Positions 42,216 to 62,033 of a DNA stretch of 64,000 nt are shown in pieces. The notes beneath the pieces were generated by a model, which had not been told where the DNA came from, searched no databases, and worked only from the letters and a program-made list of their open reading frames with translations. This DNA is from Anaerolineales bacterium. Lineage in GTDB: Bacteria; Chloroflexota; Anaerolineae; Anaerolineales; E44-bin32. Position 1 is the stretch's first letter. The number at the start of each line of letters is the position of its first letter. Made by a program: the position numbers and the translations under genes. The stretch is from NCBI GenBank assembly GCA_016927115.1, contig JAFGNH010000025.1, forward strand, positions 1,202 to 65,201, given 5' to 3'.

Positions 42216-42255
42216 GGAATCTCGGATCGAATTGTTCAATGAGGAGTATAAAAAA

Positions 42256-44050: not shown

Positions 44051-44108
44051 ACCTACTCCTGTATCAAAAAAAATGTCCTGATAAGGAAACCCTGTTTCAG
44101 GAAGTCGA

Positions 44109-45092: not shown

Positions 45093-45125
45093 TTGTGATT
45101 TCTCCCAACTTTTTTATACCGCGGG

Positions 45126-45153
45126 TTGACTTTCCCGGTTCATAGGCTATAAT
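45126..45153 (+). promoter_or_regulatory. Sigma-70 promoter of tRNA-Leu
   Basis: TTGACT-N16-TATAAT followed by a GC-rich discriminator (ACCGCGG). Confidence 0.75.
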
Positions 45154-45173
45154 ACCGCGGAATTCAGATAATT

Positions 45174-45255
45174 GCGCTGGTGCTGGAACTGGCAGACAGG
45201 CATGGTTGAGGGCCATGTGTCGCAAGACGTGCGGGTTCGACCCCCGCCCAGCGCA
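45174..45255 (+). tRNA. tRNA-Leu(GAG)
   Basis: Acceptor stem GCGCTGG/CCAGCGC plus A73, anticodon arm CATGG-TTGAGGG-CCATG, long variable arm, GGTTCGA T-loop; followed by CCT rather than CCA. Confidence 0.97.
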
Positions 45256-45264
45256 CCTGAAAAG

Positions 45265-45290
45265 AAGCTGCACAGAAGCAGCTATTTTTG
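45265..45290 (+). terminator. Probable terminator after tRNA-Leu
   Basis: AGCTGC-acagaa-GCAGCT followed by ATTTTT. Confidence 0.6.
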
Positions 45291-45307
45291 ATTCTCTTCT
45301 CTTTTTC

Positions 45308-46042
45308 TTATTCAGGGGACACAGAGTGATAGATCTCTATATGTGTGGTTTCCGGAGCCATGGGAAGCAGAGGGATAGTCAGTGTCAGCAGATGGCTTAT
45401 TTCCGCTGATAGCGAAACATGTTCCGGGATTAACCGGGTAAGCGGCGTGAGATCTGGGGTAACCCCCATGGATGGTGCCTGTTTGCTGAGTGCTATGAAT
45501 ATGCGCTGCTGGGTTGAGAGCAGTGCTTCCGAGTCGGTAGAAAGAAAGGTAACCAACCCGATCACCTGGTCCCCATGGAGTTGACCGCCATCAAATTGGA
45601 TACCCCCAAGATAATCAACAAATGTGGAAAAGGCGACTTGATCGAAAACGATCCATTGATCTGGCGTTAACGGCGTTTTCTGTTGTACAGCTGCGAGGAA
45701 GTTGCTGGAAAGACCCTCCGAGTCGGAATACTCGAAACGGGACCGAAGTGAGGAGAGATCCTGTGAGGTGTCGGCAGAACCCACAGGGAGACCAAGCAGG
45801 AAAATATCCTTTGCCGGCAGCCTATACGTCATAAACCATGTCCCAAGAAGCTGTGGATTCTCTGAGTGGAGATTGTCTACCCAGATCAAAAGAAGAGTTG
45901 TTTGTTGTTGGTCGAAGGCTGTTTGTGGTGTCGGTGTAGCCTCTGCTGTTGCAGGCGACCGCATCCAGACACTGAAGAGACCCAGCGCAAAGCAGGCTAT
46001 CGCAACAAGGAAGATGATGGGTGTTGGTGATTTATTTTTCAT
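45308..46042 (-). CDS. Membrane-anchored LCP (LytR-CpsA-Psr)-like protein, catalytic arginines not evident
   Basis: N-terminal TM; LLLIWVD, D.W.VFD..AF..FVD.LGGI, L.G.QV, QQRI resemble the LCP fold; PRD replaced by PVG. Confidence 0.6.
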   Translation of the reverse strand: MKNKSPTPIIFLVAIACFALGLFSVWMRSPATAEATPTPQTAFDQQQTTLLLIWVDNLHSENPQLLGTWFMTYRLPAKDIFLLGLPVGSADTSQDLSSLRSRFEYSDSEGLSSNFLAAVQQKTPLTPDQWIVFDQVAFSTFVDYLGGIQFDGGQLHGDQVIGLVTFLSTDSEALLSTQQRIFIALSKQAPSMGVTPDLTPLTRLIPEHVSLSAEISHLLTLTIPLLPMAPETTHIEIYHSVSPE

Positions 46043-46132
46043 AAGCAGTGGACTGATCCTTCAGGCGTCTGCACTTGAGATTGTACTCTGGTGCACGTGA
46101 AGCCGCAATCAGCCCACCGGAAATCTACTGGG

Positions 46133-46336
46133 TCAGAATAGAATCACCTGGAGTAATCCCCCTGCGGCCCAGCCAAGAATATAAGCCACGCTTCCCCAGA
46201 GAAGAATCGGTGCGTATCGTACGATCACTTGAACCGTATCCTTATTCTCCAGGGCGAATTCAGCCAGCACAACCAGCATACGCCAGAATGTTAACTGGAC
46301 CTGTATTCCCGCAGGAGTGGCTAAAATTTTCTGCAT
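46133..46336 (-). CDS. Small membrane protein (67 aa)
   Basis: AAGGAG RBS; hydrophobic C-terminal helix; in operon position. Confidence 0.65.
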   Translation of the reverse strand: MQKILATPAGIQVQLTFWRMLVVLAEFALENKDTVQVIVRYAPILLWGSVAYILGWAAGGLLQVILF

Positions 46337-46349
46337 TGTTCTTCTCCTT

Positions 46350-46583
46350 CTACCTGGATGTGCTTATACGCAGGATACGGCCGTGGGAATCGGTAGTCAC
46401 CCGTACAATTCGATTGAGAGATTTCCCACCGGGAAGGTTTACTTTACCCCGATAAATCAGCAGGTAGTGAAAACTCCCATTGGGGACTGATTGCCGGCTG
46501 ACAGTAGGCCGCGCCCCAGACATTTCTGGAAATTGGCGAGAGACTTTTTTGTTTATTTTTGAAATAGCATCTCTGTCTACCAT
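46350..46583 (-). CDS. Small basic protein homologous to the C-terminal domain of the C25-like protease (PepSY-like pattern)
   Basis: Start overlaps the ftsZ stop (TAATG); aligns by eye with the last ~90 aa of 49081..51723. Confidence 0.8.
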   Translation of the reverse strand: MVDRDAISKINKKVSRQFPEMSGARPTVSRQSVPNGSFHYLLIYRGKVNLPGGKSLNRIVRVTTDSHGRILRISTSR

Positions 46584-47728
46584 TATTCCCTCATTTCACT
46601 CATCAAAGCCCGGCGCCGAAGAAATGTTGGTACATCAATATCGTCTGTGGAAAGAATGTGCTCCGGAACAGGAAGGTTTTCACGAGCAGTTTTTGAAGAG
46701 GAGGACAAAATATTGCGAACAGGTTGCGCTCCAATACCGGTGATGATCAGAATTACCTGAGTGCGGTTCTGCATATCCGGATTATTGGATGCCCCAAGGA
46801 TCAGATCTGCATCTGGGGCAACAGCTTTTCGTAGTTCGAGCACAGCGTCACCGACCTCAATGAGGCTGAGGTCATCGCCACCGGTAAAGTGGACCAGCAC
46901 TCCCTGTGCCTGATCCAGACTGTCTATTGTCAACAGAGGATGGTGGAGCGCCTGCTGGATGGCTGAGACTGATTTCTGGGGGCCTTCTCCCAATCCAATA
47001 GACATGAACGCACCGCCGCCACGCTGCATAATTTCCCTGACATGGGCAAAATCAACATTAATTAGACCGGGCTGTGTCACAAGCTCAGCAATTCCCTGTA
47101 CTCCCTGACGCAGCACATCATCCGCAACGCGGAAAGCAACCTCGAGACTGAGATTCTGCGGAATAATCTGCAGTAATCGATCGTTTGGAATGGTAATCAA
47201 AGTATTTGTATGGGGGCGAAGTTTCCGTATGCCCTCACTTGCGTTTCTTTCACGCCGGGCCATTTCAAAGGTAAACGGCGTGGTAACAACCGCAATTACG
47301 ACCGCTCCTGTCTCTCGGGCGATTTCAGCGGCCACCGGTGCTGCGCCAGTACCTGTACCACCACCCATTCCGGCAGTGATAAAAACCATATCGGAGCCTT
47401 TGAGTGCGGCTGCTATCTCACGACTGCTTTCCATAGCGGCTGCAGCCCCGATCTTGGGATCACCACCGGCACCCAGGCCGCGTGTAATTGTCGGGCCCAG
47501 GCGAATCCTGGTTTCTGCAAGCGATTTGTCCAGTGCCTGGTGATCAGTGTTGGCCGCGATAAAATCAATACCGGTCAGTCCCAGCTCAATCATCCGGTTT
47601 ACGGCATTCGAACCGCCGCCTCCCAGGCCGAGAACCGTTATCCGGGGTTTCCCTATTTGTGAAAAATCTTCTGTAGAAGGCCCGGGTTTTAATGCTGCTC
47701 TGACTCTGATAGGTCTTGTCTCATCCAT
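46583..47728 (-). CDS. ftsZ: FtsZ (probable second paralog; T7 loop NVDFAH)
   Basis: GLGGGGSNAVNRM, NTD.QAL, GLGAG, GGGTGTG tubulin signature, C-terminal DIDVPTFLR; start ATG 47728 with AGGAG RBS; not in a dcw cluster. Confidence 0.93.
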   Translation of the reverse strand: MDETRPIRVRAALKPGPSTEDFSQIGKPRITVLGLGGGGSNAVNRMIELGLTGIDFIAANTDHQALDKSLAETRIRLGPTITRGLGAGGDPKIGAAAAMESSREIAAALKGSDMVFITAGMGGGTGTGAAPVAAEIARETGAVVIAVVTTPFTFEMARRERNASEGIRKLRPHTNTLITIPNDRLLQIIPQNLSLEVAFRVADDVLRQGVQGIAELVTQPGLINVDFAHVREIMQRGGGAFMSIGLGEGPQKSVSAIQQALHHPLLTIDSLDQAQGVLVHFTGGDDLSLIEVGDAVLELRKAVAPDADLILGASNNPDMQNRTQVILIITGIGAQPVRNILSSSSKTARENLPVPEHILSTDDIDVPTFLRRRALMSEMRE

Positions 47729-49019
47729 AACGTTCTCCTGATTGTTCAGAGGTTTGCACTTCTGGTTCACTTTCTGAAACAAGGTCGCTGAAAGGAGCCA
47801 GGTCAAGGCGGGAGACGATACAGGATTCAGCGCGCAGACTATCCTCGATTACTGAAGGGAATTGTGTTTCATCGCCAACCACTGTAACGCGTTCTGCATA
47901 GCGAGCTTCTTCTGCTGAGAAGCCGATAACCGGATGAGCAGTCCGGATAAAATCTCCGAAGCTTTTCCAGTCCCAAAGGCTCCCGGCATCGAGATCCCGC
48001 GGTAAAAGCACATAATGGACGATAGGTTTGACTGGTATCTCCTGGGGGACTGCGGATGCTTGTTTATTCTGCGTTGAATGTAACAGGGTCTGCATTGCCT
48101 TTACCACCGGCAGCGGTTCCGAGATGCTGGGGAACCATGCTGAATCTGTGCCGGGAGTAGAAGATGCGAGGCAGTAGAAGGAAAAGTTTAGCAGGTTACC
48201 GGGAAGAGTTTTATTCTGCAGCAGTCTTGTGATGGACAGGGTGTCCTCACTATGCCTGTCCAAATCAACCCGGGTTGGTTCGGCAGTGGGCAGCGAAGAA
48301 CCGCCTGCGGCAACCAGAAAAGAGGGTATCTCACCGATAATCTTTTTATAGATTGCCGAATACCAATCGAAAATACGCAAGCCGCGCTGATCCTGAGACC
48401 CTTCCGGTGTGTGGTAGGGCAAGGACTCCGGCCAGTTTTCCGGTCCGCCAATTCCCCAATCAAGCTGCTGGTTGTATGTCCAGGCATAGACGGACAGGAC
48501 AAGCTGTTTGATCTGGTCAGGTGCACGACGCTGGAGTGCAGACAGGGCAGCTTCCAGGAAAGCAGTATCCCAGTAATCTCCACCTGGCTCGAGCGGCGGA
48601 AAAATGGCTTTCAAACCCGCTGTTCGCTGAGCTTGCAATACCGGGATAAGGAAATCTGTAAAACGTTCGATCAGTCGTATCCTGGTCCACTCATTTTGTC
48701 GCCAGCTGGACTGACAGTTGGGCCGATCAAACACGACAACATACTGCACACCCCAACGGGCATACAAGGACAGGAGGTCGGAATACCCTTCCACCAGTGT
48801 TCCAATCCGGACAGGAAGGCGGACTACGGGTGTAATGCCTGCGTCGATAAGACTCTTCAGGAAATGCTCAGGGATAGCTCGGTGGGCTGAAGAGGTGAGT
48901 GTCAGCCATCTAGCCCCAAGAGACCGCAGGATCGGAAGCCAGGTAGCCAGATCTGCCTGAGAGTAATGCAGATCATCCGGATAGTAGTGGTAGCCTAATT
49001 GGCGCAGTTCCTCTGTCAT
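47721..49019 (-). CDS. Glycoside-hydrolase-like TIM-barrel protein (catalytic Glu not evident) with C-terminal cell-wall-binding-2-like segment
   Basis: G.HY, LG..W, GI.P.VRL, GV.Y...FDRPN (cf. NEPN); C-terminal VTVVG......IE..L......V.RL. Confidence 0.55.
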   Translation of the reverse strand: MTEELRQLGYHYYPDDLHYSQADLATWLPILRSLGARWLTLTSSAHRAIPEHFLKSLIDAGITPVVRLPVRIGTLVEGYSDLLSLYARWGVQYVVVFDRPNCQSSWRQNEWTRIRLIERFTDFLIPVLQAQRTAGLKAIFPPLEPGGDYWDTAFLEAALSALQRRAPDQIKQLVLSVYAWTYNQQLDWGIGGPENWPESLPYHTPEGSQDQRGLRIFDWYSAIYKKIIGEIPSFLVAAGGSSLPTAEPTRVDLDRHSEDTLSITRLLQNKTLPGNLLNFSFYCLASSTPGTDSAWFPSISEPLPVVKAMQTLLHSTQNKQASAVPQEIPVKPIVHYVLLPRDLDAGSLWDWKSFGDFIRTAHPVIGFSAEEARYAERVTVVGDETQFPSVIEDSLRAESCIVSRLDLAPFSDLVSESEPEVQTSEQSGERYG

Positions 49020-49048
49020 GATTTAATTTCCTTCCTGCCGGATAAATT

Positions 49049-49065
49049 TGCAAGAACCATGCCGG
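49049..49065 (-). promoter_or_regulatory. Sigma-54 (-24/-12) promoter upstream of the GH-like / ftsZ genes
   Basis: Minus strand CCGGCATGGTTCTTGCA (GG-N10-GC) in a 61-nt intergenic gap. Confidence 0.75.
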
Positions 49066-49080
49066 TTCCGTTTCTGACTG

Positions 49081-51723
49081 CTATTTTGAGACAACCAGCT
49101 TCATGATCTTTCCCGTATGATCGATAGTAACTCTGGCGAAGCGGGAGTGTATCCGGTTGGCTGAGCGGATGTCTTTTGAGAAAGTAAAAATGTAGTGTTG
49201 GCCATTCTCACCTGGGACGAGCTTGGCATTGGAAGCCTGTATACCCTGTCCGATGTGGGAATAGATCGGCGAGTGGATCACGCACTCCGCATCGGACATT
49301 CCGGGCAGGTAGCTGGCCATGATGGTTTTCACTTTCGTCAGCATCATCGGATCAAACTCGGATTCCGGCAGCACAGTTTCTTTGGAGGTCGAAACAACTT
49401 TCATCGAAGCCGGCCGATTTTTTGAACGGGAAGAAGTCTTGCTGTCCGACTGTGAAGCAGCTGCTGTAAACAGAGGGTCACCGAAAAGGACGAAAGAAAT
49501 CAGGGTTTTCTGATCTTCTCCATCAAGGAAGCCCTGTCTTTCATGCATTTCAGCTGCAAGTCTCAGCCTGGCCTGTCGCAGCGCTTCTCCAGCCGGGATG
49601 CGCTGTTTCAGATTTATCCAGAAAAGTTTGCTGAGCAGATCAGCAGCAATAAGCGGAGTATTGACGGAACCATAAGAGATCTTCGTTGAACCCACGACAA
49701 CTTTGCTGCCGGAGGCAAGGAAGCGCAGTGAAATCGCGCTTTCTGAAGTTTTATCGACCGTATTCGCTCCATAACATGCTTCTGTAAATATGACCTCAGG
49801 AGCGGAGCCGCTGTTGAGAATGTCATCAGGGCGGAGTGCAACAGGGAATTCTTCCACGTCCGGGGTGGTAAATGGGTCTCGCTGGCCGAACCATTCCGGA
49901 GAATCCTCCAGCCCATGCAGGTTGAAATAAGAGAAACGGACACCTGCTGAGCCATCAGGCGGGTAGGGGCCTGCTTCGACAGGAGGGGATGTTTGCAGGG
50001 AGCGTGGCGAGCCGATTACCCGGAACACATCCATGGCTGCTTTACGCCAGATATCTGCACTATAGCCTAATGCACTGGTTTGGTTTCCGGTGATGCGGCC
50101 GAACAATCGGGATATCCAATTCCGGATTTTTCCGAAGATACCGGTTTTCTGTACAGGGTTCCGGTGGTACTCAGCTGTATCGGTAAGTGCCTTCAGCAGC
50201 TCATCGATTTGATCGGAGGGGAACCGTCCTACAGGCCATTCGGGTGCATAGTAGTTTTCATCCGTAGTGCCATAGGGGTTATCCGATAGGATCACATCAT
50301 CATCATCATCCGTGGGGTTAGGGAGCTGATGGAAGGGGATCACTTTATCGCTGCCAACGATCAAAAGAGCGCCAATCATCTCGCCCTGATTCCGAAGCGC
50401 CTGATCAAGATCGGCAAGCCGCAGTTTAATCTGCCAGGCGTTGCCTGGGTCAGCAGGTGCAAGCTGAAAAGCAGAGAGCGAGTTTGGATCATCGATAAAG
50501 AGAATATGTGCATTCCACGCCGGCCGGCGTTTCATCATCAAAACAAGATTAACCAGTGCTTTATTGATTCGTTCGAATCCTTCGTCGTCAAGTGTCTGCA
50601 CAAGGCGTGTGCGGCTGGAGAGGATGATGTATGCCGGTTTACGGCCATCGTCAGCCCGCTGGGTTCGATCAACTTTCAGCCTTTGTGCAAGCTGTTCAAA
50701 CTCAGCTTTAATTTCCTCAAGTTCATTCTGTCCGGAGATAGATTCATCCCCGGACCGTGGGCCCTGGAAAGCTTCCCAGGGTTCGGGCTGCGGCAGGTCA
50801 GCGGGATCGATATCCACTTCTTCTTCAGTATTGATGTCAGAGGAGCCATTCTTGGCAACAGCGTGAGATTGGTTGGTCTGGTTCTCCGTATTCTCTATAA
50901 AGGATGCTGAATTCTCAGTTGAAGCAGAGGTGCTTTCCAACGTTTCCGTAAGGAGGTTATCACCCAGTACCGCGGATACCTGTGCAGGAATAGCAGATGA
51001 GAACTGAGCATTCAGGGAAGAAGGCCACAAATTCCTGTATGGGTTGTCCAGGTCAAAAACATACGCAGCTGCTTCGCCGGCGGGATCTTCAGCTGCTGCC
51101 TGATGCAGCAATTCAACACCAAGTGAAGTTTCTCCGCTCCGCATTTTCATCTGGCCGAGCAGCAGCCTGACAGGGACACATTCAGGCCAGCGGTCCTGGG
51201 TCTGCAGCAGCAGCGCTTCCAGGATTTCCGGAGGTTTCGACTGTGCGTAGATCCGTGCTGCAATCCAGGTAGGCAGAGGGAGATCCGGTCCGAGTGCGAG
51301 TACATCCTCAACTGCAGCAGCTGCGGTAGCATACTCCTGCTTGTTGAGCGCTGCATATGCCAGGGAAAGTCCGGCCGCCCAGGAAGGGCTGCCTTCCGGG
51401 ATGGGCGTATTCTTCAAAGCAGCGATACAGGCATTCACTGTGGGAAGCAGGTTGAACTGCTTTAAATAGATAATGACACTGGCTGCCAGTTCGTACGCAG
51501 GCAGGTATTCCGGGTTGGTGATCCATAATTTCTTCAACCTTGCCAGAGCATTTTGTGCAAGGTTCTGATCGTATTCGGCCCGGGCAAGAAGACAGGTCAC
51601 CTCAGAATCACCAGGCCAGAACGTCAGCCAGTCTGTTGCCAGGTTGCGGGCTGTGTCCGGTCGTCCGGCAATAAAGGCCGCATGGATTGTTTCCAGCCAG
51701 GTATCTCTTCGAATTTGTGTCAT
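49081..51723 (-). CDS. TPR plus C25 (gingipain/caspase-fold) cysteine peptidase with C-terminal small domain
   Basis: LLIVG....IPF, SDNPYG, P...VGRFP; catalytic NLHG (His) and EACYG (Cys); VVGST, LFGDP; ATGA-coupled to the upstream TPR gene. Confidence 0.8.
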   Translation of the reverse strand: MTQIRRDTWLETIHAAFIAGRPDTARNLATDWLTFWPGDSEVTCLLARAEYDQNLAQNALARLKKLWITNPEYLPAYELAASVIIYLKQFNLLPTVNACIAALKNTPIPEGSPSWAAGLSLAYAALNKQEYATAAAAVEDVLALGPDLPLPTWIAARIYAQSKPPEILEALLLQTQDRWPECVPVRLLLGQMKMRSGETSLGVELLHQAAAEDPAGEAAAYVFDLDNPYRNLWPSSLNAQFSSAIPAQVSAVLGDNLLTETLESTSASTENSASFIENTENQTNQSHAVAKNGSSDINTEEEVDIDPADLPQPEPWEAFQGPRSGDESISGQNELEEIKAEFEQLAQRLKVDRTQRADDGRKPAYIILSSRTRLVQTLDDEGFERINKALVNLVLMMKRRPAWNAHILFIDDPNSLSAFQLAPADPGNAWQIKLRLADLDQALRNQGEMIGALLIVGSDKVIPFHQLPNPTDDDDDVILSDNPYGTTDENYYAPEWPVGRFPSDQIDELLKALTDTAEYHRNPVQKTGIFGKIRNWISRLFGRITGNQTSALGYSADIWRKAAMDVFRVIGSPRSLQTSPPVEAGPYPPDGSAGVRFSYFNLHGLEDSPEWFGQRDPFTTPDVEEFPVALRPDDILNSGSAPEVIFTEACYGANTVDKTSESAISLRFLASGSKVVVGSTKISYGSVNTPLIAADLLSKLFWINLKQRIPAGEALRQARLRLAAEMHERQGFLDGEDQKTLISFVLFGDPLFTAAASQSDSKTSSRSKNRPASMKVVSTSKETVLPESEFDPMMLTKVKTIMASYLPGMSDAECVIHSPIYSHIGQGIQASNAKLVPGENGQHYIFTFSKDIRSANRIHSRFARVTIDHTGKIMKLVVSK

Positions 51724-56858: not shown

Positions 56859-56870
56859 ACAGATCAACTC

Positions 56871-57206
56871 CTAAGCAGGTATGGCTGCAATTTGCTGGAG
56901 CGCCCAGAAGGATGCCCCCATCAATCCAAGGCCAATCAGCATCAGGAAAGCGCCGATGCCGGTTGATGTGCGTACCAGCTGATTGACAGCATAGACCAGT
57001 TCCGATGCACTTGAGACCAGCCCTGCAACTTCCTGTGCCAGGCCCTTCTGGCCCAATTCAGCGGTGCTGGACGCGAGAGCCTGGATCTCACTGGCATACC
57101 CGCGGCGCAGCAGGATGTAAACGCCCAGCAGGAAGCAGAAAGCACCCAGCACAAAAATGGCGGCGGTAACAAGCAGTCGGGTTTCTAAAACTGAGAATGG
57201 GAACAT
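56871..57206 (-). CDS. Two-TM small membrane protein
   Basis: GGAGG RBS; TM - amphipathic helix - TM; first gene after a sigma-54 promoter. Confidence 0.8.
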   Translation of the reverse strand: MFPFSVLETRLLVTAAIFVLGAFCFLLGVYILLRRGYASEIQALASSTAELGQKGLAQEVAGLVSSASELVYAVNQLVRTSTGIGAFLMLIGLGLMGASFWALQQIAAIPA

Positions 57207-57241
57207 GGAATACCTCCAGATAGATCATCTGAGATATTCAG

Positions 57242-57257
57242 TGCAAGGATCGTGCCA
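57242..57257 (-). promoter_or_regulatory. Sigma-54 (-24/-12) promoter upstream of the membrane protein / TPR / protease genes
   Basis: Minus strand TGGCACGATCCTTGCA, a consensus match in a 67-nt intergenic gap. Confidence 0.88.
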
Positions 57258-57273
57258 GTTTAGTTAGTGTTCC

Positions 57274-58440
57274 CTAGTTCTGGAATTCAGGAGGAAGGTG
57301 ATTGATATCAATAGTTTCATCATCGCAGAAGAGCATTGCACGTTCGATCGTATGGCGCAGCTCGCGGATATTTCCCGGCCAGTAGGGCTGCTTGAGTGCT
57401 TCGAGTGCACGTGGGGAAGCGCTGCTGATGGCAGTTCCCATACGAGGATTCAACTGGCGGATAAACGTTCCCACCAGTGCCGGGATATCAGCCTTGCGTT
57501 CACGCAGGGGTGGTATATGCAGGTCCAGTACCTTCAGGCGGTAAAACAGGTCTTCACGGAAGGTCTTTTCGGCAACCATTGCAGGCAAATCACGGTTGGA
57601 TGCGGCCAGAATCTGGATGTCAACAGATATTTCTGTAACTCCGCCGACACGCCGGAAGGAGCGATCTTCGAGGACTCGCAGTAATTTTGCCTGCATATCC
57701 GGTTTTGTAGAAGAAATTTCATCGAGAAACAGGATTCCGCCATCGGCAACTTCGATTAACCCGGGTTTTTTCTTGACAGCGCCGGTAAATGCGCCTGCTT
57801 CGTGGCCAAAAAGCTCAGATTCAATCATGGTATCGGGAAGGGCGGAGCAGTTAATCGGGATGAAGGATTTATCGGCGCGCGGGCTCATCTGTCTGAGTGC
57901 CTGTGCCAGAACTTCCTTGCCTGTACCGGTTTCTCCGGTAATCAACACGGAAACGGACGCCTGGGCAGCCCGTTGGGCTTCATGCATCAGTTTTTTCATC
58001 TCCGGCGTGTCACCAACGATCATTTCCACCTGTCCGGATGAAGCTCTGCGAAAAAGGTCGATTTCCCGGCGCATGGTTACGATCTCGCTGGAACGGTCAA
58101 CAGCCTGCTGCAAGCGCTGAAGGTCAAGCGGCTTCTGCAGGAAATCAACAGCACCTTTTTTCATTGCTTCAACGGCGGTGTCAATTTCACCGAAAGCCGT
58201 GATCAGAATGACCGGCGGGCTGGGGTTTTCAAGGGCAATTGTGTCCAGGAGAGACAGTCCGGAACCGTCCGGCAGCATTACATCGAGGAGGATAATGTCC
58301 GCTTCACCAACACCGATAATTTCCCGGGCTTCAGCCAGAGAACCCGCTTCAAGTGTCTGGTAACCGGCGTCTTTGAGTGCTTCGCCCACAAAACTACGGG
58401 CGATTTCTTCGTCATCAATGATCAAGACTGTAATCGACAT
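57274..58440 (-). CDS. Sigma-54-dependent response regulator (REC plus AAA+), no C-terminal HTH
   Basis: IDDE/LLD REC domain; GETGTGKE, ELFGHE.GAFTGA, LFLDEI, FREDLFYRL, WPGNIREL; ends about 25 aa later. Confidence 0.93.
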   Translation of the reverse strand: MSITVLIIDDEEIARSFVGEALKDAGYQTLEAGSLAEAREIIGVGEADIILLDVMLPDGSGLSLLDTIALENPSPPVILITAFGEIDTAVEAMKKGAVDFLQKPLDLQRLQQAVDRSSEIVTMRREIDLFRRASSGQVEMIVGDTPEMKKLMHEAQRAAQASVSVLITGETGTGKEVLAQALRQMSPRADKSFIPINCSALPDTMIESELFGHEAGAFTGAVKKKPGLIEVADGGILFLDEISSTKPDMQAKLLRVLEDRSFRRVGGVTEISVDIQILAASNRDLPAMVAEKTFREDLFYRLKVLDLHIPPLRERKADIPALVGTFIRQLNPRMGTAISSASPRALEALKQPYWPGNIRELRHTIERAMLFCDDETIDINHLPPEFQN

Positions 58441-58443
58441 GCA

Positions 58444-60417
58444 CTACTCCTGTCCGGATTTAGGTGCAGCTGGGATCTGTATGGTAAAGATTGTACCCGC
58501 TCCCGGATAACTTTCAACTGCGATATGCCCTTTATGAGCGTTCAGAATACGGCGGCTGATCGCCAGGCCAAGCCCGGTACCACTCTTTTTCGTTGTGAAG
58601 AAAGGATTAAAGATGCGATCAATTAACTCCTGTGGTATTCCGGGGCCCGTATCTGCGATTTTTATCTCAACCATCTCACCCTGTGGCGTGATCGCCTTTT
58701 CAAGCGAAACGGAGAGTGTGCCTCCCTCTTCCATTGCCTGCATGGCATTGGTGATCAGGTTCACCAGGACATGCTCCAGTGTCCGCTGATCAGCCAGTGC
58801 AGCCGGTGCAGAGGTATTAAAGGCGGTGTAACATTCAATATTAGACTGCTGCAGGCGTGGTTTCCAGCGTTGGAGCAGGCGATCGAGCAGATCCTGGAGC
58901 AAGAGAGGCTCCATTTTTAATTCCAATGGGCGGGCAAAGAAAAGAACATCACTGAGGAGTTGATCAAGCCGGGTACATTCCTTTCGGATCCGGTCCAGTG
59001 AGGGGAACAACTCATGATCCTCACCCAGCCGTGAACCGATCAGCTGAACACCAGTGCTGATATTATTGATCGGGTTGCGGACTTCGTGAGCGAAAATGGC
59101 AGTTACTTCGCCCAGAAGTGCACGCTGGCTGAGGGCTTCATTCTGATCGGCAATCGCCTGTTTTTCTGATTGATCGGAGAAAACAACCAGCAGAGAGGGC
59201 TCTTCCCCACCGGATCGTGGGTGGACAGAAAGACGAATGGGGAAGGGGGTGCCATCCCTGCGGTGGATCACAAGGTTCGATTCGGCAGAAAGCGGCTGTC
59301 CATGCGATGCAAGCAGCCAGGAGAGTATGTCTGTAGAGCTTACAAGCACGTCCTGTACGCCTCGTCCCTGCAGGTCACGCACAGGGCTGCCGAGCATTTT
59401 TGCAGCTGCAGGGTTGATGTACTGGACTTTGTAGCTGCTGTCCAGGTGAAGGATGCCATCGGTAATAATAGCGGATTGGTCTTCCAATTTTGTTTGCAGC
59501 AGGCTGAGTCTCTGTTGAAGCGTCGAAAAGGTCTGTCTTTGCAGTTCGAGCAATATACCTGCATGGAGGATGGTGGCGGCTGCTTCCATCAGATTTTGGC
59601 TGGATTCTGACACTGCGCCCGGTTCTTCCCAACCGATAACAAGCAGTCCGATCAGGGCATTCTCGCTGCCGATAGGAGTGATGTGGAGCGACTGCAGGCC
59701 GGATGCACGGGCTGCTTTTTTCAGGGGATGGTCCGGCCGTTGTCCAAGGCTCCAGGAGGAAGGTTTCTCCAACGTATCCATATCGTTCAGCTGCAGGACT
59801 TCAGGGAAAGATGCCGGAAGTGCGCTGGCCAGATTGTAGACTGGCTCCTGAGGCGCTACACGATAGATGCCCGTCATGGCTGCGGCAAGCAGTGCTGTGG
59901 TTTTCTGCAATGCATCTTCAAGGGAAGGATTCTCCGTATTGAACAGAGCATCCATCATACCTTTAAGCAGAAGGAACTGCTCCTGCTGAGCTGTATTCAG
60001 GCGTTCATTCCGGGTGCGGATGCTTGAGGCTCGGGCAATTATCAGGATATCATTCTGTGCAGCTGGGACAGGACGGGCTTCCAGATCGATCCGGAGGATA
60101 CTACCCGGATGTGTTCGCATGGCCAGATCTGTCAGCGTAATTTCTGCGCCGGATTTACAATCGAATAACGCCCTTTTCAGGTCACTTCCACTATCGCCAG
60201 GGAAGAGAGAAAGAGGGCTGACCCGTTCGAGATCTGATCGGGCATAACCTGAAAGCACAAGAAACGCATGATTTACGGAAATAAAACGGCAGCCATCATT
60301 GCTGATAACAAGGATACTATCCGGCAGAATGTCGGATAGTATCCGGAAATACTCTTGATAGGGGTTGGGTTTCAGCAGCCTGGAAATTGCACTGCCTGAA
60401 AGGTTGGGCCCAGACAA
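58444..60417 (-). CDS. Cytoplasmic PAS-GAF-PAS histidine kinase (NtrB/AtoS-type)
   Basis: AHEVRNP H-box, NLITNA, DTGPGI, FNPFFTTK..GTGLGL. Confidence 0.93.
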   Translation of the reverse strand: MSGPNLSGSAISRLLKPNPYQEYFRILSDILPDSILVISNDGCRFISVNHAFLVLSGYARSDLERVSPLSLFPGDSGSDLKRALFDCKSGAEITLTDLAMRTHPGSILRIDLEARPVPAAQNDILIIARASSIRTRNERLNTAQQEQFLLLKGMMDALFNTENPSLEDALQKTTALLAAAMTGIYRVAPQEPVYNLASALPASFPEVLQLNDMDTLEKPSSWSLGQRPDHPLKKAARASGLQSLHITPIGSENALIGLLVIGWEEPGAVSESSQNLMEAAATILHAGILLELQRQTFSTLQQRLSLLQTKLEDQSAIITDGILHLDSSYKVQYINPAAAKMLGSPVRDLQGRGVQDVLVSSTDILSWLLASHGQPLSAESNLVIHRRDGTPFPIRLSVHPRSGGEEPSLLVVFSDQSEKQAIADQNEALSQRALLGEVTAIFAHEVRNPINNISTGVQLIGSRLGEDHELFPSLDRIRKECTRLDQLLSDVLFFARPLELKMEPLLLQDLLDRLLQRWKPRLQQSNIECYTAFNTSAPAALADQRTLEHVLVNLITNAMQAMEEGGTLSVSLEKAITPQGEMVEIKIADTGPGIPQELIDRIFNPFFTTKKSGTGLGLAISRRILNAHKGHIAVESYPGAGTIFTIQIPAAPKSGQE

Positions 60418-60420
60418 CGA

Positions 60421-61842
60421 TTACACTCTGGCGGCAGCCGGCGCTTTTTTATGCCGCAGCCGGGCCGGTAAGATACCTTCAATCGAACGATATTTCGCCA
60501 CCGTTCGACGGGCAATACTGATATTCTGCTTTCTCAGCAGTTCCACAATTTGTTCATCAGTGTAGGGCTTGGTTTCTTTGCGGACAATGTCTTTGATACG
60601 ATCCCGCACTGACAGGCTCCGGTCAAAAAAGCGGCTCAGCGGGATGATCCGTCCATCTGGAAGCGCAACCGATTTACTGGAAACAGCTCGGGAAATTGTG
60701 GATTCGTGCACACCGATTTCTTCTGCAATTGCTGCCCGGGTCATCGGAGACAACTCTCGATCGCCCCGAAGAATGAAATTGCGCTGTTTGCCGACCAGGA
60801 TTTCCATAAGCTGGCGCATGGTATTGTTCCGCTGCTGCATGCACTTCACAAAGAGATTTGCCCGATCCAGGTGTTTGCCCCAGGCGTCGCTTTTGCTGTC
60901 TTCGGCAGAAGCAGCGGCTTTGCGGAAGAGCGGGTTGACACGCAGCCAGCCGTATATCGGGGCGAAAATTTCGACCACCAGTGCACCTTCGGGATCAACG
61001 GGATTGTGACTGATCAGGATGTCGGGTGTGTGGTAGATGTTAGGATCGGCGGCAATAGCCTGACGCCCGGATCCCCAATAGGCACTGGCGGGGTAGGGGT
61101 TAAGGTTATCATGAATGAATTGGACAGCTGTACGGACTTTCTGCAGGCTGATCTTCAGCTTGCGGGAGATTGTCTCGTAGTCTTTTTTACCCAGCTCGGA
61201 AAAAAGAGTCAGAATAATCTGCCGTGCGTAGCCGATGATTAGATTCTCAGGCTCTTCTTGCTGGATCAGATCGAGCTGCACGAGCAGAGCATCACGCGGG
61301 CCGCTGGTGGCTAATCCTGGAGGATCGGTATGTGAAATCAGGTCAAGCACACGTGTGACCTGCTCCATCGGGGAGCGTGTCAGGCGGGCGAGCATTACGG
61401 GTGGGTCCTGCAGAAACCCGTTATCATCCAGACTGGAGAGGATGTAAACAGCGAGTTTGCGATCCTCAGGCCGGATATCCGCTGCCAGCTGGCGAAGAAC
61501 GGAGAGGGAAAGATCTTCCGGTGCTGCCGGCTCCTGATCCGCCAGGCCGTCTTCTGAGGAACGGGATCGGCCCGGAGCGAAGGATTCGCGCGGTGACAGG
61601 AACACAATCGGCTCATCCTGGCTGCGGGCGGCGCTGCATGCCGGACAGGGACCTGGCGAACGCAGCGGGCGATGGCAGGAAGGACAGACACTCTCATCGA
61701 CGATTTCCAGGGCAGGATTTGAAGAAATCTCGTGCAGGATTTCCTCGCGCAGGTCCTGGTTTGAAAGCACCAGCAGGCTCATTGTTTGAGCCAGGTGTGC
61801 TGTAGCAAGTGGTCGGAGTGATTGGTCTTGAATTTGGAACAT
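60421..61842 (-). CDS. rpoN: RNA polymerase sigma-54 factor with Cys4 insertion
   Basis: L..S..DL...I..E...NPALE region I, LDDNGFL, HESTISRAV HTH, RpoN box ARRTVAKYR. Confidence 0.96.
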   Translation of the reverse strand: MFQIQDQSLRPLATAHLAQTMSLLVLSNQDLREEILHEISSNPALEIVDESVCPSCHRPLRSPGPCPACSAARSQDEPIVFLSPRESFAPGRSRSSEDGLADQEPAAPEDLSLSVLRQLAADIRPEDRKLAVYILSSLDDNGFLQDPPVMLARLTRSPMEQVTRVLDLISHTDPPGLATSGPRDALLVQLDLIQQEEPENLIIGYARQIILTLFSELGKKDYETISRKLKISLQKVRTAVQFIHDNLNPYPASAYWGSGRQAIAADPNIYHTPDILISHNPVDPEGALVVEIFAPIYGWLRVNPLFRKAAASAEDSKSDAWGKHLDRANLFVKCMQQRNNTMRQLMEILVGKQRNFILRGDRELSPMTRAAIAEEIGVHESTISRAVSSKSVALPDGRIIPLSRFFDRSLSVRDRIKDIVRKETKPYTDEQIVELLRKQNISIARRTVAKYRSIEGILPARLRHKKAPAAARV

Positions 61843-61896
61843 GAGAATCCCTCGATTTGTGAGTATACTTCAGGATGAATGCCTGCGCAATATCGT

Positions 61897-61912
61897 TGCA
61901 AGATATGTGCCA
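61897..61912 (-). promoter_or_regulatory. Sigma-54 (-24/-12) promoter upstream of rpoN itself
   Basis: Minus strand TGGCACATATCTTGCA, 54 nt before the rpoN ATG. Confidence 0.85.
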
Positions 61913-62033
61913 TAATTGCTGTGATAAAATCTGTGTCAAAGAGAAATCGGCATTGAGTATCGGCGTATAGCCTCGCTTCAATCGGGTGTTTTTTGGGTTT
62001 TTCCCTGAAATACAATGCCTGGAGGATGTATTA

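What the first reader, a model, noticed from the sequence alone, without database searches (positions are those of the whole stretch)
45308..61939. Self-contained sigma-54 block: a candidate differentiation or alternative cell-division programme
Seen: eleven co-oriented genes arranged in three tiers, each preceded by a -24/-12 promoter. Tier 1: rpoN, kinase, activator. Tier 2: membrane protein, giant TPR, caspase/gingipain-fold protease. Tier 3: GH-like, FtsZ, two small proteins, LCP-like. No nitrogen or flagellar genes are present. Established: sigma-54 with an HTH-less activator (CtcC) controls developmental genes in Chlamydia. Inference: this is a dedicated switch that deploys a special FtsZ, a protease and envelope pseudoenzymes, for example for filament septation/fragmentation, resting-cell formation or programmed death. 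I know of no description of this module.
Basis: partly seen in the sequence, partly recalled or inferred. Interest (0 to 1): 0.88.

Follow-up and report, generated by a model that had tools for sequence, protein, structure and literature searches.

The report
Sigma-54 switch driving a second FtsZ
A whole order of filamentous Chloroflexota carries a conserved gene block in which the cell's only sigma-54 factor and only activator switch on a second, probably slow-hydrolysing FtsZ together with a giant scaffold protein, a caspase-like protease and wall-binding proteins, which looks like an undescribed conditional cell-division or envelope programme.

Summary
Eleven co-oriented minus-strand genes lie at 45308-61842 in three units, each behind a -24/-12 site.

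Shown here:
- The genome has one rpoN, one true activator (receiver plus AAA+, no HTH) and two FtsZ genes. FtsZ1 sits in the dcw cluster.
- The three units recur in 90 related Anaerolineales loci, sometimes in a different order.
- A strict sigma-54 site lies before mem111 in 51 of 64 loci, before the GH-like gene in 45 of 57, and before rpoN in 18 of 18 plus the window. It lies before 0 of 234 internal or flanking gene starts.
- FtsZ2 is a separate paralogue clade. It keeps the C-terminal tether peptide but has lost the T7-loop Asp (E. coli D212): His 46, Asn 7, Ala 1, Asp 0 of 54.
- Fold and profile searches support the LCP-like call, with its conserved arginines replaced, and the GH clan-A-like call.
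- The C25-like peptidase keeps an invariant His-Gly and Ala-Cys.

Two corrections:
- The block is not fully self-contained. A LysM protein and a 355-aa protein elsewhere carry conserved sites.
- The membrane-protein/TPR/C25(/GH-like) core also occurs in other Chloroflexota classes, 11 of them without sigma-54.

The function (conditional septation or fragmentation) is inferred. No RNA data were available. My literature searches found no description of the module.

The parts
61897..61912 (-). sigma-54 -24/-12 site P1 (TGGCACATATCTTGCA), 55 nt before rpoN
   Evidence: A strict site lies upstream of rpoN in 5 of 5 and 13 of 13 orthologous loci with enough upstream DNA.
61862..61890 (-). Candidate basal sigma-A-type promoter (TTGCGC-17-TATACT) between P1 and rpoN
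   Evidence: The TATACT box is identical in the window and 4 family-level relatives and nearly so (TACACT) in G036; it is absent in G038. The TTGCGC box is less strict (TTGCAT and TTGCGT in two relatives). Function is inferred.
60421..61842 (-). rpoN, the only sigma-54 gene of the genome (473 aa; RpoN box ARRTVAKYR)
   Evidence: NCBIfam TIGR02395 scores 245.4 bits, below its cut-off of 277.35.
58444..60417 (-). Soluble PAS/PAS histidine kinase (657 aa; no hydrophobic N-terminus by eye)
   Evidence: PAS x2, HisKA, HATPase_c. It follows rpoN in the related loci.
57274..58440 (-). Receiver + AAA+ sigma-54 activator without a DNA-binding domain (388 aa; GAFTGA present)
   Evidence: PF00158 224.6 bits, no HTH family; alignments to NtrC/AtoC models end near position 385-390 of about 460. 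It is the only true activator in the genome and in 5 of 5 relatives.
57242..57257 (-). sigma-54 -24/-12 site P2 (TGGCACGATCCTTGCA), 36 nt before mem111
   Evidence: A strict site lies at the same place in 51 of 64 orthologous loci.
56871..57206 (-). mem111, a small membrane protein with two hydrophobic segments
   Evidence: no Pfam hit. It lies upstream of the C25 gene in 63 of 64 loci and also in other Chloroflexota classes.
51720..56867 (-). Giant TPR protein (1715 aa), cytoplasmic by eye
   Evidence: TPR families along the whole length. Its position is conserved.
49081..51723 (-). TPR + Peptidase_C25-like (clan CD) cysteine peptidase (880 aa), no signal peptide by eye
   Evidence: PF01364, E 1.7e-14. 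His603-Gly604 and Ala649-Cys650 are invariant in 11 of 11 sequences. Found in 36 of 40 relatives.
49049..49064 (-). sigma-54 -24/-12 site P3 (CGGCATGGTTCTTGCA), 30 nt before the GH-like gene
   Evidence: one mismatch, not significant alone. A strict site lies at the same place in 45 of 57 orthologous loci.
47721..49019 (-). GH clan-A-like TIM-barrel protein with a C-terminal alpha/beta domain (432 aa), cytoplasmic by eye
   Evidence: pLDDT 89.7; best match PslG 4zn2, E 4.1e-10, TM 0.49; then GH128 and GH26. No Pfam hit and no PDB sequence match.
46583..47728 (-). FtsZ2, a paralogue of the dcw-cluster FtsZ (the ORF is open back to 47806)
   Evidence: (50% identity to FtsZ1). The T7 Asp is replaced by His. 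The C-terminal peptide DIDVPTFLRRR is kept.
46350..46583 (-). sm77, a conserved 77-aa protein whose start overlaps the FtsZ2 stop
   Evidence: It follows FtsZ2 in all 45 loci that hold the downstream unit. No Pfam hit.
46133..46336 (-). sm67, a conserved small hydrophobic protein
   Evidence: a homologous ORF lies in the sm77-LCP-like gap in 36 of 39 loci.
45308..46042 (-). LCP-like protein with an N-terminal membrane helix (244 aa); conserved LCP arginines replaced
   Evidence: pLDDT 87.6; the first 33 PDB matches are all LCP proteins; profile against TagV, E 1.4e-9, with residue alignment.
45266..45283 (.). Terminator-like hairpin 25 nt after the last gene of the block
   Evidence: This is a consensus match only.

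Best explanation
This is a vertically inherited sigma-54 regulon of Anaerolineales (Chloroflexota) that deploys an accessory FtsZ-based envelope apparatus.

Shown here:
- The cell has one sigma-54 and one activator, encoded side by side with a soluble PAS histidine kinase.
- The activator has a receiver and an AAA+ domain but no DNA-binding domain.
- Conserved -24/-12 promoters precede rpoN itself, the mem111/giant-TPR/C25-peptidase unit, and the GH-like/FtsZ2/sm77/sm67/LCP-like unit.
- Conserved sites also precede at least two unlinked genes: a LysM wall-binding protein and a 355-aa protein.

Inferred:
- An intracellular signal sensed by the PAS kinase phosphorylates the activator.
- The activator then acts from solution on every sigma-54 closed complex.
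- Because rpoN carries its own sigma-54 promoter next to a candidate basal promoter, the response amplifies itself and is switch-like.
- FtsZ2 keeps the GTP-binding loops and the C-terminal membrane-tether peptide, but its T7-loop Asp (E. coli D212) is His or Asn. It should therefore form slowly hydrolysing, poorly treadmilling polymers, alone or mixed with FtsZ1.
- The TPR scaffold, the intact clan-CD peptidase, the GH-like protein, the small membrane proteins and the wall-facing LCP-like and LysM proteins would form a trans-envelope assembly around FtsZ2.
- Most likely role: a conditional change of septation in the multicellular filament, such as fragmentation, septum remodelling or division arrest.
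For: Regulators:
- One rpoN and one true activator in the genome, and one activator in 5 of 5 relatives, two of them single-contig genomes.
- No HTH in the activator.

Promoters:
- A strict site lies before mem111 in 51 of 64 loci and before the GH-like gene in 45 of 57.
- It lies before rpoN in 5 of 5 loci and 13 of 13 further loci.
- It lies before 0 of 234 control starts: HK 0/40, EBP 0/46, TPR 0/30, sm77 0/53, LCP-like 0/38, plsX 0/21, trmFO 0/6.
- The 104 sites give TGGCAC-R-N-W-N-C-TTGCA-N-C.

Synteny and co-occurrence:
- The three units stay intact but are shuffled as blocks.
- 33 of 36 C25-positive relatives have two or more FtsZ_C matches. The 4 C25-negative relatives have exactly one.

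FtsZ2:
- One clade on the tree, SH-aLRT 100.
- T7 residue His 46, Asn 7, Ala 1, Asp 0 of 54, against Asp in 16 of 16 FtsZ1 or single FtsZ.
- In E. coli, D212A/G are the most severe GTPase and treadmilling mutants (passages of 10.1101/077610). The residue numbering comes from PMC8456036 passages.

Extra targets:
- LysM protein 17 of 28 loci, 355-aa protein 20 of 27.
- The site is missing in the two rpoN-less relatives.
Against: - No expression data. No RNA run holds the region, so no promoter has been shown to fire.
- The third promoter is below significance in this window alone.
- The mem111/TPR/C25(/GH-like) core also exists in other Chloroflexota classes. There, 11 of 22 carriers have no sigma-54 and no sigma-54 sites were seen at the corresponding places. 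The core machine does not therefore need this switch and may be housekeeping.
- His at the T7 position could still support some hydrolysis. No FtsZ with His there has been assayed, to my knowledge (recalled).
- One FtsZ2 (G028) keeps Asp.
- Strict sites are missing in 13 of 64 and 12 of 57 loci.
- No protein contact among the members has been shown.
Confidence: 0.55

Rival explanations
1. Housekeeping reading. The mem111/TPR/C25/GH-like machine and FtsZ2 are routine parts of every division or envelope cycle in these filaments. FtsZ2 would be an obligate co-polymer partner of FtsZ1, as in chloroplasts or haloarchaea. Sigma-54 is simply the sigma factor that this lineage uses for envelope genes, not a developmental switch.
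For: - The core occurs in 22 sampled genomes of other Chloroflexota classes, 11 of them without rpoN, and there without sigma-54 sites.
- The block is single-copy and syntenic with trmFO and plsX across a family.
- Sigma-54 has been linked broadly to the cell exterior (PMC3162934, abstract and passages).
Against: - A dedicated PAS kinase and receiver gate the only activator.
- rpoN carries its own sigma-54 promoter in 18 of 18 relatives checked, which suits conditional amplification.
- A whole family of the same order (f14, 24 of 24 sampled) and 4 of 40 relatives do without C25 and FtsZ2. The module is therefore dispensable for growth as a filament-forming lineage.
- FtsZ2 evolves much faster than FtsZ1.
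Confidence: 0.27
2. Programmed cell death or conflict system of a multicellular bacterium. The caspase-like peptidase with TPR sensors kills or arrests the cell. A GTPase-poor FtsZ acts as a division-blocking effector, for example to make sacrificial cells that break the filament or to abort an infection.
For: - A clan-CD peptidase with an intact His/Cys, plus TPR arrays.
- An FtsZ lacking the T7 Asp.
- Conflict systems of multicellular bacteria, Chloroflexi included, carry often-inactive cell-division domains, among them rare FtsZ/tubulin examples (PMC7159879 passages).
Against: - No PADLOC defence family matches any output protein. There are only generic TPR hits and AAA+ hits of the activator.
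- There is no vWA/MoxR or NTPase sensor of the kind that paper describes.
- The block is vertically inherited at a fixed chromosomal place at 45-70% identity. It is not sporadic or diversifying.
Confidence: 0.1
3. The -24/-12 matches are non-functional, and the genes are merely neighbours read from ordinary promoters.
For: - No transcript data.
- The degenerate pattern is not enriched in the window.
- Genome-wide, 35 sites fit the relaxed pattern, and many of them lie inside genes.
Against: - Position-specific conservation at exactly three gene starts in up to 64 genomes, and at none of 234 control starts.
- Extra conserved bases beyond the searched pattern.
- The site is lost upstream of the 355-aa gene in the two relatives that lack rpoN.
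Confidence: 0.03

Closest known systems
Chlamydia CtcB/CtcC/sigma-54 developmental regulon
   Same: A kinase, a receiver + AAA+ activator that lacks a DNA-binding domain, and sigma-54, together driving a small envelope-related gene set at a developmental transition. CtcC is stated to lack a DNA-binding domain in PMC7482065 (passages).
   Different: - Here rpoN, kinase and activator form one operon behind a sigma-54 promoter of their own.
- The targets are an FtsZ paralogue, a TPR/clan-CD peptidase pair and wall-binding proteins, not type III effectors or membrane proteins of an intracellular pathogen.
- The kinase here is a soluble PAS protein.
Helicobacter/Campylobacter FlgS/FlgR flagellar sigma-54 system (recalled, apart from the NCBIfam FlgR match)
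   Same: A cytoplasmic kinase and an activator that works without a DNA-binding domain on all sigma-54 promoters of the cell.
   Different: The targets there are flagellar genes. No flagellar genes are present here, and rpoN there is not known to me to be self-activated.
Second FtsZ copies: chloroplast FtsZ1/FtsZ2, archaeal FtsZ1/FtsZ2, extra bacterial copies outside the dcw cluster
   Same: A duplicated FtsZ kept beside the canonical one, outside the dcw cluster and in a conserved locus. PMC9871819 (passages) notes that the few bacteria with two copies have the extra one outside dcw, and it suggests subfunctionalisation.
   Different: - That paper names Bipolaricaulota, not Anaerolineales.
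- This paralogue has a clade-wide replacement of the T7 Asp.
- It is co-transcribed with dedicated partners and sits behind a sigma-54 promoter.
E. coli FtsZ D212 (T7-loop) mutants
   Same: The same residue is affected. D212A/G have the strongest loss of GTPase and treadmilling and give deformed, incomplete septa (10.1101/077610 passages).
   Different: Those are laboratory mutants of the sole FtsZ. Here a natural paralogue carries His or Asn and coexists with a normal FtsZ1. The activity of a His variant is unknown.
Gingipain-type Peptidase_C25 / clan CD peptidases (caspases, separase, CHAT)
   Same: A Pfam C25 match over the cut-off, with His-Gly and Ala-Cys invariant. Helical repeats joined to a clan-CD domain recall separase and CHAT-TPR proteins (recalled).
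   Different: There is no signal peptide or secretion domain by eye, so the protein is probably cytoplasmic, unlike gingipains. There is no sequence-level match to any solved peptidase. The substrate is unknown.
LCP (LytR-CpsA-Psr) wall-polymer transferases
   Same: The same fold: the first 33 PDB matches are LCP proteins. Profile homology to TagV, E 1.4e-9. An N-terminal membrane helix is present.
   Different: There is no Pfam LCP hit at E 0.01. The arginine-bearing motifs aligned to TagV (GRSD, PRD, R-x-R) are replaced. It is probably a binding protein rather than a transferase.

Membership tests
Sigma-54 (RpoN) | Activator-interacting, core-binding and DNA-binding domains with an RpoN box | tested here: met
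   PF00309 24.7 bits, PF04963 93.7 bits and PF04552 109.1 bits, all over their cut-offs. ARRTVAKYR is present in the translation.
Sigma-54 (RpoN) | Score over the NCBIfam equivalog cut-off | tested here: not met
   TIGR02395 scores 245.4 bits against a cut-off of 277.35. This is a divergent member.
Bacterial enhancer-binding protein, DNA-binding-domain-less type (CtcC/FlgR-like) | AAA+ sigma-54 interaction domain with GAFTGA, receiver domain, no C-terminal HTH | tested here: met
   PF00158 224.6 bits, PF00072 99.1 bits and an AAA lid, with no HTH family. GAFTGA is in the translation. Alignments to NtrC/AtoC models stop near 385-390 of about 460.
Sigma-54-dependent promoter | GG at -24 and GC at -12 with fixed spacing, upstream of the gene, conserved among relatives | tested here: met
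Sigma-54-dependent promoter | Transcription start about 12 nt downstream of the -12 GC, dependent on sigma-54 and the activator | not testable with these tools
   No RNA run holds the region.
FtsZ | Tubulin GTPase domain + FtsZ_C, over the equivalog cut-off | tested here: met
   PF00091 160.4 bits and PF12327 79.1 bits. TIGR00065 scores 384.5 bits against a cut-off of 295.2.
FtsZ | T7-loop N-x-D-x-x-D with the second Asp (E. coli D212) | tested here: not met
   The loop reads NVDFAH here. Across 54 orthologues the residue is His 46, Asn 7, Ala 1, Asp 0. It is Asp in 16 of 16 FtsZ1 or single FtsZ.
FtsZ | Conserved C-terminal peptide for membrane tethers | tested here: met
   DIDVPTFLRRR here; similar in most of the 15 FtsZ2 sequences examined, with weaker variants in G031 and G040.
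FtsZ | Location in the dcw cluster next to ftsA | tested here: not met
   The dcw copy is FtsZ1 on contig C88, within ftsW-murG-murC-murB-ddl-ftsQ-ftsA-ftsZ.
Peptidase family C25 (clan CD) | Family profile match and a conserved His/Cys dyad | tested here: met
   PF01364 scores 54.3 bits against a cut-off of 23. His603-Gly604 and Ala649-Cys650 are invariant in 11 of 11. That these residues are the catalytic pair rests on the recalled clan-CD motif pattern.
Peptidase family C25 (clan CD) | Secreted, with a signal peptide and a sorting domain as in gingipains | tested here: inconclusive
   No hydrophobic N-terminus by eye. No signal-peptide predictor was run. The profile hits only TPR chains in the PDB.
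LCP (LytR-CpsA-Psr) | LCP fold and sequence-profile homology | tested here: met
LCP (LytR-CpsA-Psr) | Conserved arginines and aspartate that bind the pyrophosphate-lipid donor | tested here: not met
   In the alignment to TagV, GRSD aligns to p-r-L-l, PRD to l-p-v-d, and R-M-R to l-r-l. The role of these residues is recalled.
Glycoside hydrolase clan A | (beta/alpha)8 barrel | tested here: met
   pLDDT 89.7. Matches: PslG E 4.1e-10, TM 0.49; then GH128, GH26 and GH5.
Glycoside hydrolase clan A | Acid/base Glu after strand 4 (N-E-P) and nucleophile Glu after strand 7 | tested here: inconclusive
   Strand 4 is followed by an invariant D-R-P-N and strand 7 by A-G-G. No conserved Glu is seen at either place. 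No residue-level structural superposition was available.
Known anti-phage defence systems (PADLOC) | A match of an output protein to a defence family | tested here: not met
   Only generic TPR hits, plus AAA+ hits of the activator.

The most novel reading that the evidence does not exclude
Anaerolineales possess a second, naturally GTPase-crippled FtsZ cytoskeleton. It is built on demand by a self-amplifying, single-activator sigma-54 switch. It works with a separase-like TPR/clan-CD protease and pseudo-enzyme wall adaptors to cut, seal or arrest septa in a multicellular filament. This would be a previously undescribed bacterial developmental division programme, grafted onto an older Chloroflexota-wide TPR/protease envelope machine.
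Probability: 0.3. Interest if true: 0.88.

Novelty: new variant of a known kind. Interest (0 to 1): 0.74.

Why it matters
Anaerolineales are abundant filamentous bacteria of sediments and digesters, and their cell biology is almost unknown.

If the reading holds, it gives three things:
- A compact, fully specified regulatory circuit: one sigma factor, one kinase, one activator and about five promoters. It can be rebuilt in a test tube or in E. coli.
- A natural experiment on what an FtsZ without the T7 aspartate does beside a normal FtsZ.
- An entry point to how Chloroflexota filaments septate, fragment or stop dividing.

It also widens the known uses of sigma-54. The comparative survey of 2011 did not find cell division enriched near sigma-54, its activators or its promoters (PMC3162934, Table 2 passage).

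The wider, sigma-54-independent membrane-protein/TPR/C25/GH-like core is an uncharacterised conserved machine of the phylum.

Tried and rejected
I did not try it again, so nothing from it is used.
- Expression: the look-up of sequencing runs listed no RNA holder. The one RNA run of the same study held next to none of the words. I did not use read laying, because only contigs of DNA runs held the stretch.
- Binding of sm77 to FtsZ2: complex prediction gave no answer, with scores 0.00 and 0.00 against a mark of 0.32. This says nothing either way.
- Rfam: no family at gathering score in 44000-63500.
- Sequence-level matches to solved structures: the GH-like profile found none (best E 0.024). The C25-protein profile hit only TPR chains.
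- The sigma-70-like site that the scanner placed at 61939-61912 is not conserved in relatives, and such sites are not enriched (11 found, 11.1 expected). I replaced it with the conserved TTGCGC-17-TATACT candidate.
- The two TGGCAC...TTGCW matches with 6-nt spacing (57024-57040 inside mem111; 62281-62297 antisense in trmFO) were not followed up and are not counted as promoters.
- Other genome-wide sites with a downstream ORF were not tested for conservation: a 1097-aa dCache/HAMP/GAF/PAS kinase, a CBM9 protein, a PD40 propeller protein, an Ada-like protein and a DUF6585 protein.
- The 355-aa target: the Atlas gave only hypothetical Chloroflexota clusters, a minority of them with barrel-sandwich (Biotin_lipoyl/RnfC_N) labels.
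- Literature: I found no paper describing the module.
  - no paper in the listing holds all three of Anaerolineae, sigma-54 and FtsZ; 'FtsZ paralog' + Chloroflexi gave 0 papers.
  - Searches found nothing either.
  - PMC12316311 contains neither Chloroflexota, Chloroflexi nor Anaerolinea.
  - Supplements were closed and may hold regulon or FtsZ tables that mention these genes.
- Counts include genomes flagged as unpublished (G265 in all three; G077 and G183). The phylum-level tallies rest partly on them.
- Rows dropped: L060 and L100 as duplicates of L039 and L037. In some searches, loci without 260-300 nt of upstream DNA, or without the N-terminus of the query, were left out of the denominators.

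Full report
WHAT IS THERE

The region 45308-61939 holds eleven co-oriented minus-strand genes.
- Pfam names sigma-54 (all three domains) and a PAS/PAS/HisKA/HATPase kinase.
- It names a Response_reg + Sigma54_activat + AAA-lid protein with no HTH.
- It names a TPR + Peptidase_C25 protein and a Tubulin + FtsZ_C protein.
- The 1715-aa protein is TPR throughout.
- Five proteins have no Pfam family: 111, 432, 77, 67 and 244 aa.
- NCBIfam confirms the flanks as trmFO and plsX. It places the FtsZ over the equivalog cut-off (384.5 against 295.2 bits) and the sigma-54 under it (245.4 against 277.35).
- NCBIfam also shows that the activator aligns to NtrC/AtoC models only up to about position 385-390 of about 460. 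The DNA-binding end is missing.

PROMOTERS IN THE WINDOW

- TGGCAC-N4-6-TTGCW occurs four times, against 0.30 expected; 0 of 100 shuffles reach four.
- The two sites with canonical spacing lie 55 nt before rpoN and 36 nt before the membrane-protein gene.
- The third site, before the 432-aa gene, has one mismatch and is not significant by itself: 10 matches against 8.55 expected for the degenerate pattern.

THE GENOME

The assembly has 4.81 Mb in 204 contigs, 92% completeness and 6.75% contamination.
- It holds one sigma-54 gene over the cut-off.
- It holds one true activator at 227 bits. The five other PF00158 matches score 20-34 bits and lie in 353-887-aa frames, as generic AAA+ proteins would.
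- It holds two FtsZ genes.
- The other FtsZ (FtsZ1, contig C88) ends a classical ftsW-murG-murC-murB-ddl-ftsQ-ftsA-ftsZ cluster. It is 50% identical to the block's FtsZ2 (191 of 379).
- Five of five relatives checked, two of them single-contig genomes, also have exactly one activator, next to rpoN.

CONSERVATION

- The C25-type protein is found in 36 of 40 relatives: 24 of 24 in the same family and 12 of 16 genomes from other families of the order.
Of these, 565 encode a relative.
- The best 80 come from records titled Anaerolineales, Anaerolineaceae, Anaerolineae, Chloroflexota, Chloroflexia, Leptolinea sp. or Ca. Mesolinea.
- I examined 90 non-redundant loci:
  - mem111 lies upstream of the C25 gene in 63 of 64 loci with enough DNA.
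  - The activator lies further upstream in 44 of 61.
  - The GH-like gene plus FtsZ2 follow directly in 45 of 70.
- Where the order differs, whole units have moved:
  - GH-like/FtsZ2/sm77 lies before mem111 in L036, L094, L099 and L101.
  - The FtsZ2 unit lies 160 kb away in G038, still next to its GH-like gene.
  - In G005 the rpoN operon is on a different contig (C39) from the rest of the block (C3).
- The small ORFs are real. sm77 aligns across 36 sequences. A homologue of sm67 lies in the gap before the LCP-like gene in 36 of 39 loci.

PHYLOGENETIC FOOTPRINT OF THE PROMOTERS

I used the strict pattern [TC]GGCA[CT]-N5-TTGC[AT].
- It lies within 260 nt upstream of mem111 in 51 of 64 loci.
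- It lies upstream of the GH-like gene in 45 of 57 loci.
- It lies upstream of rpoN in 5 of 5 loci.
- It lies upstream of none of the kinase (0/40), activator (0/46), TPR (0/30), sm77 (0/53), LCP-like (0/38), plsX (0/21) or trmFO (0/6) starts.
- A few genomes instead have a site before the C25 gene (4 of 85) or before FtsZ2 itself (5 of 53).
- With a slightly looser pattern ([TCA]GG[CT]A[CT]-N5-TTGC[ATC]), thirteen further rpoN loci from other families of the order all have a site before rpoN (13 of 13).
- The 104 collected sites give TGGCAC-R-N-W-N-C-TTGCA-N-C. They show conservation at positions the search did not fix. The median distances to the start codons are 55, 37 and 29 nt.

rpoN is thus behind its own promoter type in every genome examined. 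Between that site and the start codon lies a candidate sigma-A-type promoter. Its TATACT box is shared by the window and 4 family-level relatives and is close (TACACT) in G036. It could give the basal level that any self-activating sigma factor needs (function inferred).

A second rpoN copy inside a NifA/sigma-54 operon is known in rhizobia, and a sole rpoN there is negatively autoregulated (PMC3538637 passages). I do not know of a sole rpoN behind a sigma-54 promoter (recalled).

THE REGULON REACHES BEYOND THE BLOCK

The genome has 35 sites that fit the strict pattern, many of them inside genes. Two of the intergenic ones are conserved.
- One precedes a LysM-domain protein (contig C22). A site is present in 17 of 28 orthologous loci.
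- One precedes a 355-aa protein without a Pfam family (contig C188). A site is present in 20 of 27 loci, starting about 35-36 nt before the start codon in most of them.
- The two relatives without rpoN (G033, G037) have the 355-aa gene but no site.

'Self-contained' is therefore not exact. The extra targets fit an envelope theme.

FtsZ2

- On a tree of 31 FtsZ sequences, the 15 FtsZ2 sequences form one side of a branch (SH-aLRT 100, length 1.33).
- The single FtsZ of each module-less relative groups with FtsZ1.
- FtsZ2 tips are longer than FtsZ1 tips (quick method, midpoint root for drawing only).
- Co-occurrence: 33 of 36 C25-positive relatives have two or more FtsZ_C matches. The exceptions are 56%, 85% and 87% complete. 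The four C25-negative relatives have exactly one.
- FtsZ2 keeps the glycine-rich GTP loop and the C-terminal peptide.
- In the T7 loop it reads N-V-D-F-A-H where FtsZ1 reads N-L-D-F-A-D.
- Over 54 orthologues the last residue is His 46, Asn 7, Ala 1, Asp 0. One long-branch FtsZ2 (G028) keeps Asp. FtsZ1 and single FtsZ have Asp in 16 of 16.
- The position is E. coli D212: N207, D209 and D212 are named as T7-loop residues in PMC8456036 (passages).
- D212A/G are the most severe GTPase mutants. D212G has 14% of wild-type GTPase and 6.7% of wild-type treadmilling speed, and gives incomplete septa (10.1101/077610, passages).
- The inference is that FtsZ2 polymers turn over slowly, and that FtsZ2 within FtsZ1 filaments would slow them. 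This is not shown.

THE OTHER OUTPUT PROTEINS

- The C25-type peptidase has an N-terminal TPR region, a low-complexity linker and the peptidase domain. His603-Gly604 and Ala649-Cys650 are invariant in 11 of 11.
- It has no hydrophobic N-terminus by eye, so it is probably cytoplasmic.
- The 432-aa protein folds confidently (pLDDT 89.7) into a TIM barrel plus a small alpha/beta domain. It resembles PslG (E 4.1e-10, TM 0.49), GH128 and GH26 enzymes most.
- I see no conserved Glu after strands 4 and 7, so it may not be a hydrolase. This is inconclusive.
- The 244-aa protein has a membrane helix and an LCP fold (pLDDT 87.6). The first 33 PDB matches are all LCP proteins.
- Its profile finds TagV at E 1.4e-9, but the arginine-bearing motifs are replaced. 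It is probably a wall or lipid-carrier binder rather than a transferase.
- No output protein matches a PADLOC defence family.

WIDER DISTRIBUTION

In an even sample of 401 Chloroflexota genomes:
- The C25-type protein is found in 35 and sigma-54 in 138.
- Strong GH-like orthologues (E below 1e-60) are found in 24, all of them C25-positive.
- All 13 carriers of the window's class, the window's own genome included, have rpoN.
- Of the 22 carriers in other classes, 11 have rpoN and 11 do not.
- In eleven loci fetched from those genomes, the order mem111 / long TPR gene / C25 (often followed by the GH-like gene) is kept. No FtsZ was found in the 10 loci from other classes.
- Only the locus from the window's class (L228) shows a sigma-54 site at the corresponding place. 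It reads activator, sigma-54 site, mem111, TPR, C25 and an FtsZ-like gene.
- One family of the window's order (f14, 24 genomes, 97-100% complete) lacks C25, the GH-like protein and rpoN altogether.

So an old membrane-protein/TPR/peptidase machine of the phylum was, in Anaerolineae, joined to an FtsZ paralogue and placed under a dedicated sigma-54 circuit. These tallies include genomes flagged as unpublished (G265; G077 and G183).

HOW IT MOST LIKELY WORKS

Shown: the parts, their conservation, the promoter pattern, and the single sigma-54/activator pair.

Inferred:
- The soluble PAS kinase senses an intracellular cue and phosphorylates the receiver.
- The activator lacks a DNA-binding domain, so it acts from solution on all sigma-54 closed complexes, as described for CtcC (PMC7482065 passages).
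- rpoN self-activation makes the response steep.
- The products assemble a trans-envelope complex:
  - cytoplasmic FtsZ2, the GH-like protein, the TPR scaffold and the peptidase;
  - membrane-bound mem111 and sm67;
  - outward-facing LCP-like and LysM proteins.
- This complex alters septation.

I put 0.55 on this reading. I put 0.27 on a housekeeping version, 0.10 on a death or conflict version (compare PMC7159879 passages), and 0.03 on non-functional sites.

NOVELTY

- The regulatory logic is a known kind, as in Chlamydia and Helicobacter.
- New as far as my searches reach are the cargo, the self-activated sole rpoN, and the clade-wide T7 change in a co-regulated FtsZ paralogue.
- The survey of the FtsZ family notes only that the few bacteria with two copies keep the extra one outside dcw (PMC9871819 passages).
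- The 2011 sigma-54 survey found sigma-54 in 'some Chloroflexi' and did not find cell division enriched in its neighbourhoods (PMC3162934 passages).
- Supplements were closed.

LIMITS

- There are no transcript data.
- No protein contact has been shown (no answer).
- The catalytic-residue readings rest partly on recalled motifs.

Noticed in passing
G000 contig C22:9482-10216 (locus L157:1480-2217, minus strand): A 245-aa protein with two LysM domains has a perfect TGGCACGCTACTTGCA 58 nt upstream. A site is conserved in 17 of 28 orthologous loci. It is a likely further sigma-54 target outside the block. A NUDIX gene follows it.
   Followed up: yes
G000 contig C188:18474-19538 (locus L161:275-1342): A 355-aa protein without a Pfam family has a sigma-54 site that starts about 36 nt before its start codon. 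The site is conserved in 20 of 27 loci and missing in the two rpoN-less relatives. The Atlas places it in hypothetical Chloroflexota clusters, some with barrel-sandwich labels.
   Followed up: partly
loci L224-L234 (other Chloroflexota classes): The gene order small membrane protein / very long TPR gene / C25-type peptidase, often followed by the GH-like gene, is kept in other classes. There I saw no sigma-54 site at the corresponding place and no FtsZ paralogue. This is an uncharacterised phylum-wide module in its own right.
   Followed up: partly
L125 (G027) and L127 (G032): Two relatives with no C25 match and a single FtsZ still keep rpoN-kinase-activator, then a sigma-54 site, then mem111. 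G032 also has a TPR gene after that. What replaces the peptidase there was not examined.
   Followed up: no
window 57024-57040 and 62281-62297 (minus strand): Two further TGGCAC...TTGCW matches with 6-nt spacing, one inside mem111 and one antisense inside trmFO upstream of rpoN. Their conservation was not checked.
   Followed up: no
window 9942-9957 (plus strand): A near-consensus site, TGGCACGATCTTTCCT, with a broken -12 element. Its context was not examined.
   Followed up: no
window 49081-49150 and 46350-46420 (C-termini of the C25 protein and of sm77): Both proteins end in a similar strand-turn-strand motif (R-V-T-x-D-x-x-G-K/R-I-x-K/R-x-x-x-S-K/R) that recalls PepSY-type domains (recalled). 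sm77 might mimic or compete with the peptidase's own C-terminal domain. Not tested.
   Followed up: no
window 42232-43296 (plus strand) and 43376-44050 (minus strand): A 354-aa protein ending in an excisionase-type DNA-binding domain, and a 224-aa membrane-anchored protein without any family hit, lie just beyond plsX. Both are outside the conserved block.
   Followed up: no
G000 contig C27:75053-78346 (locus L158:554-3847, minus strand): A 1097-aa dCache/HAMP/GAF/PAS histidine kinase has CGGCATATATGTTGCA 13 nt before its ORF. It is a possible further sigma-54 target or feedback sensor. Its conservation was not tested.
   Followed up: no
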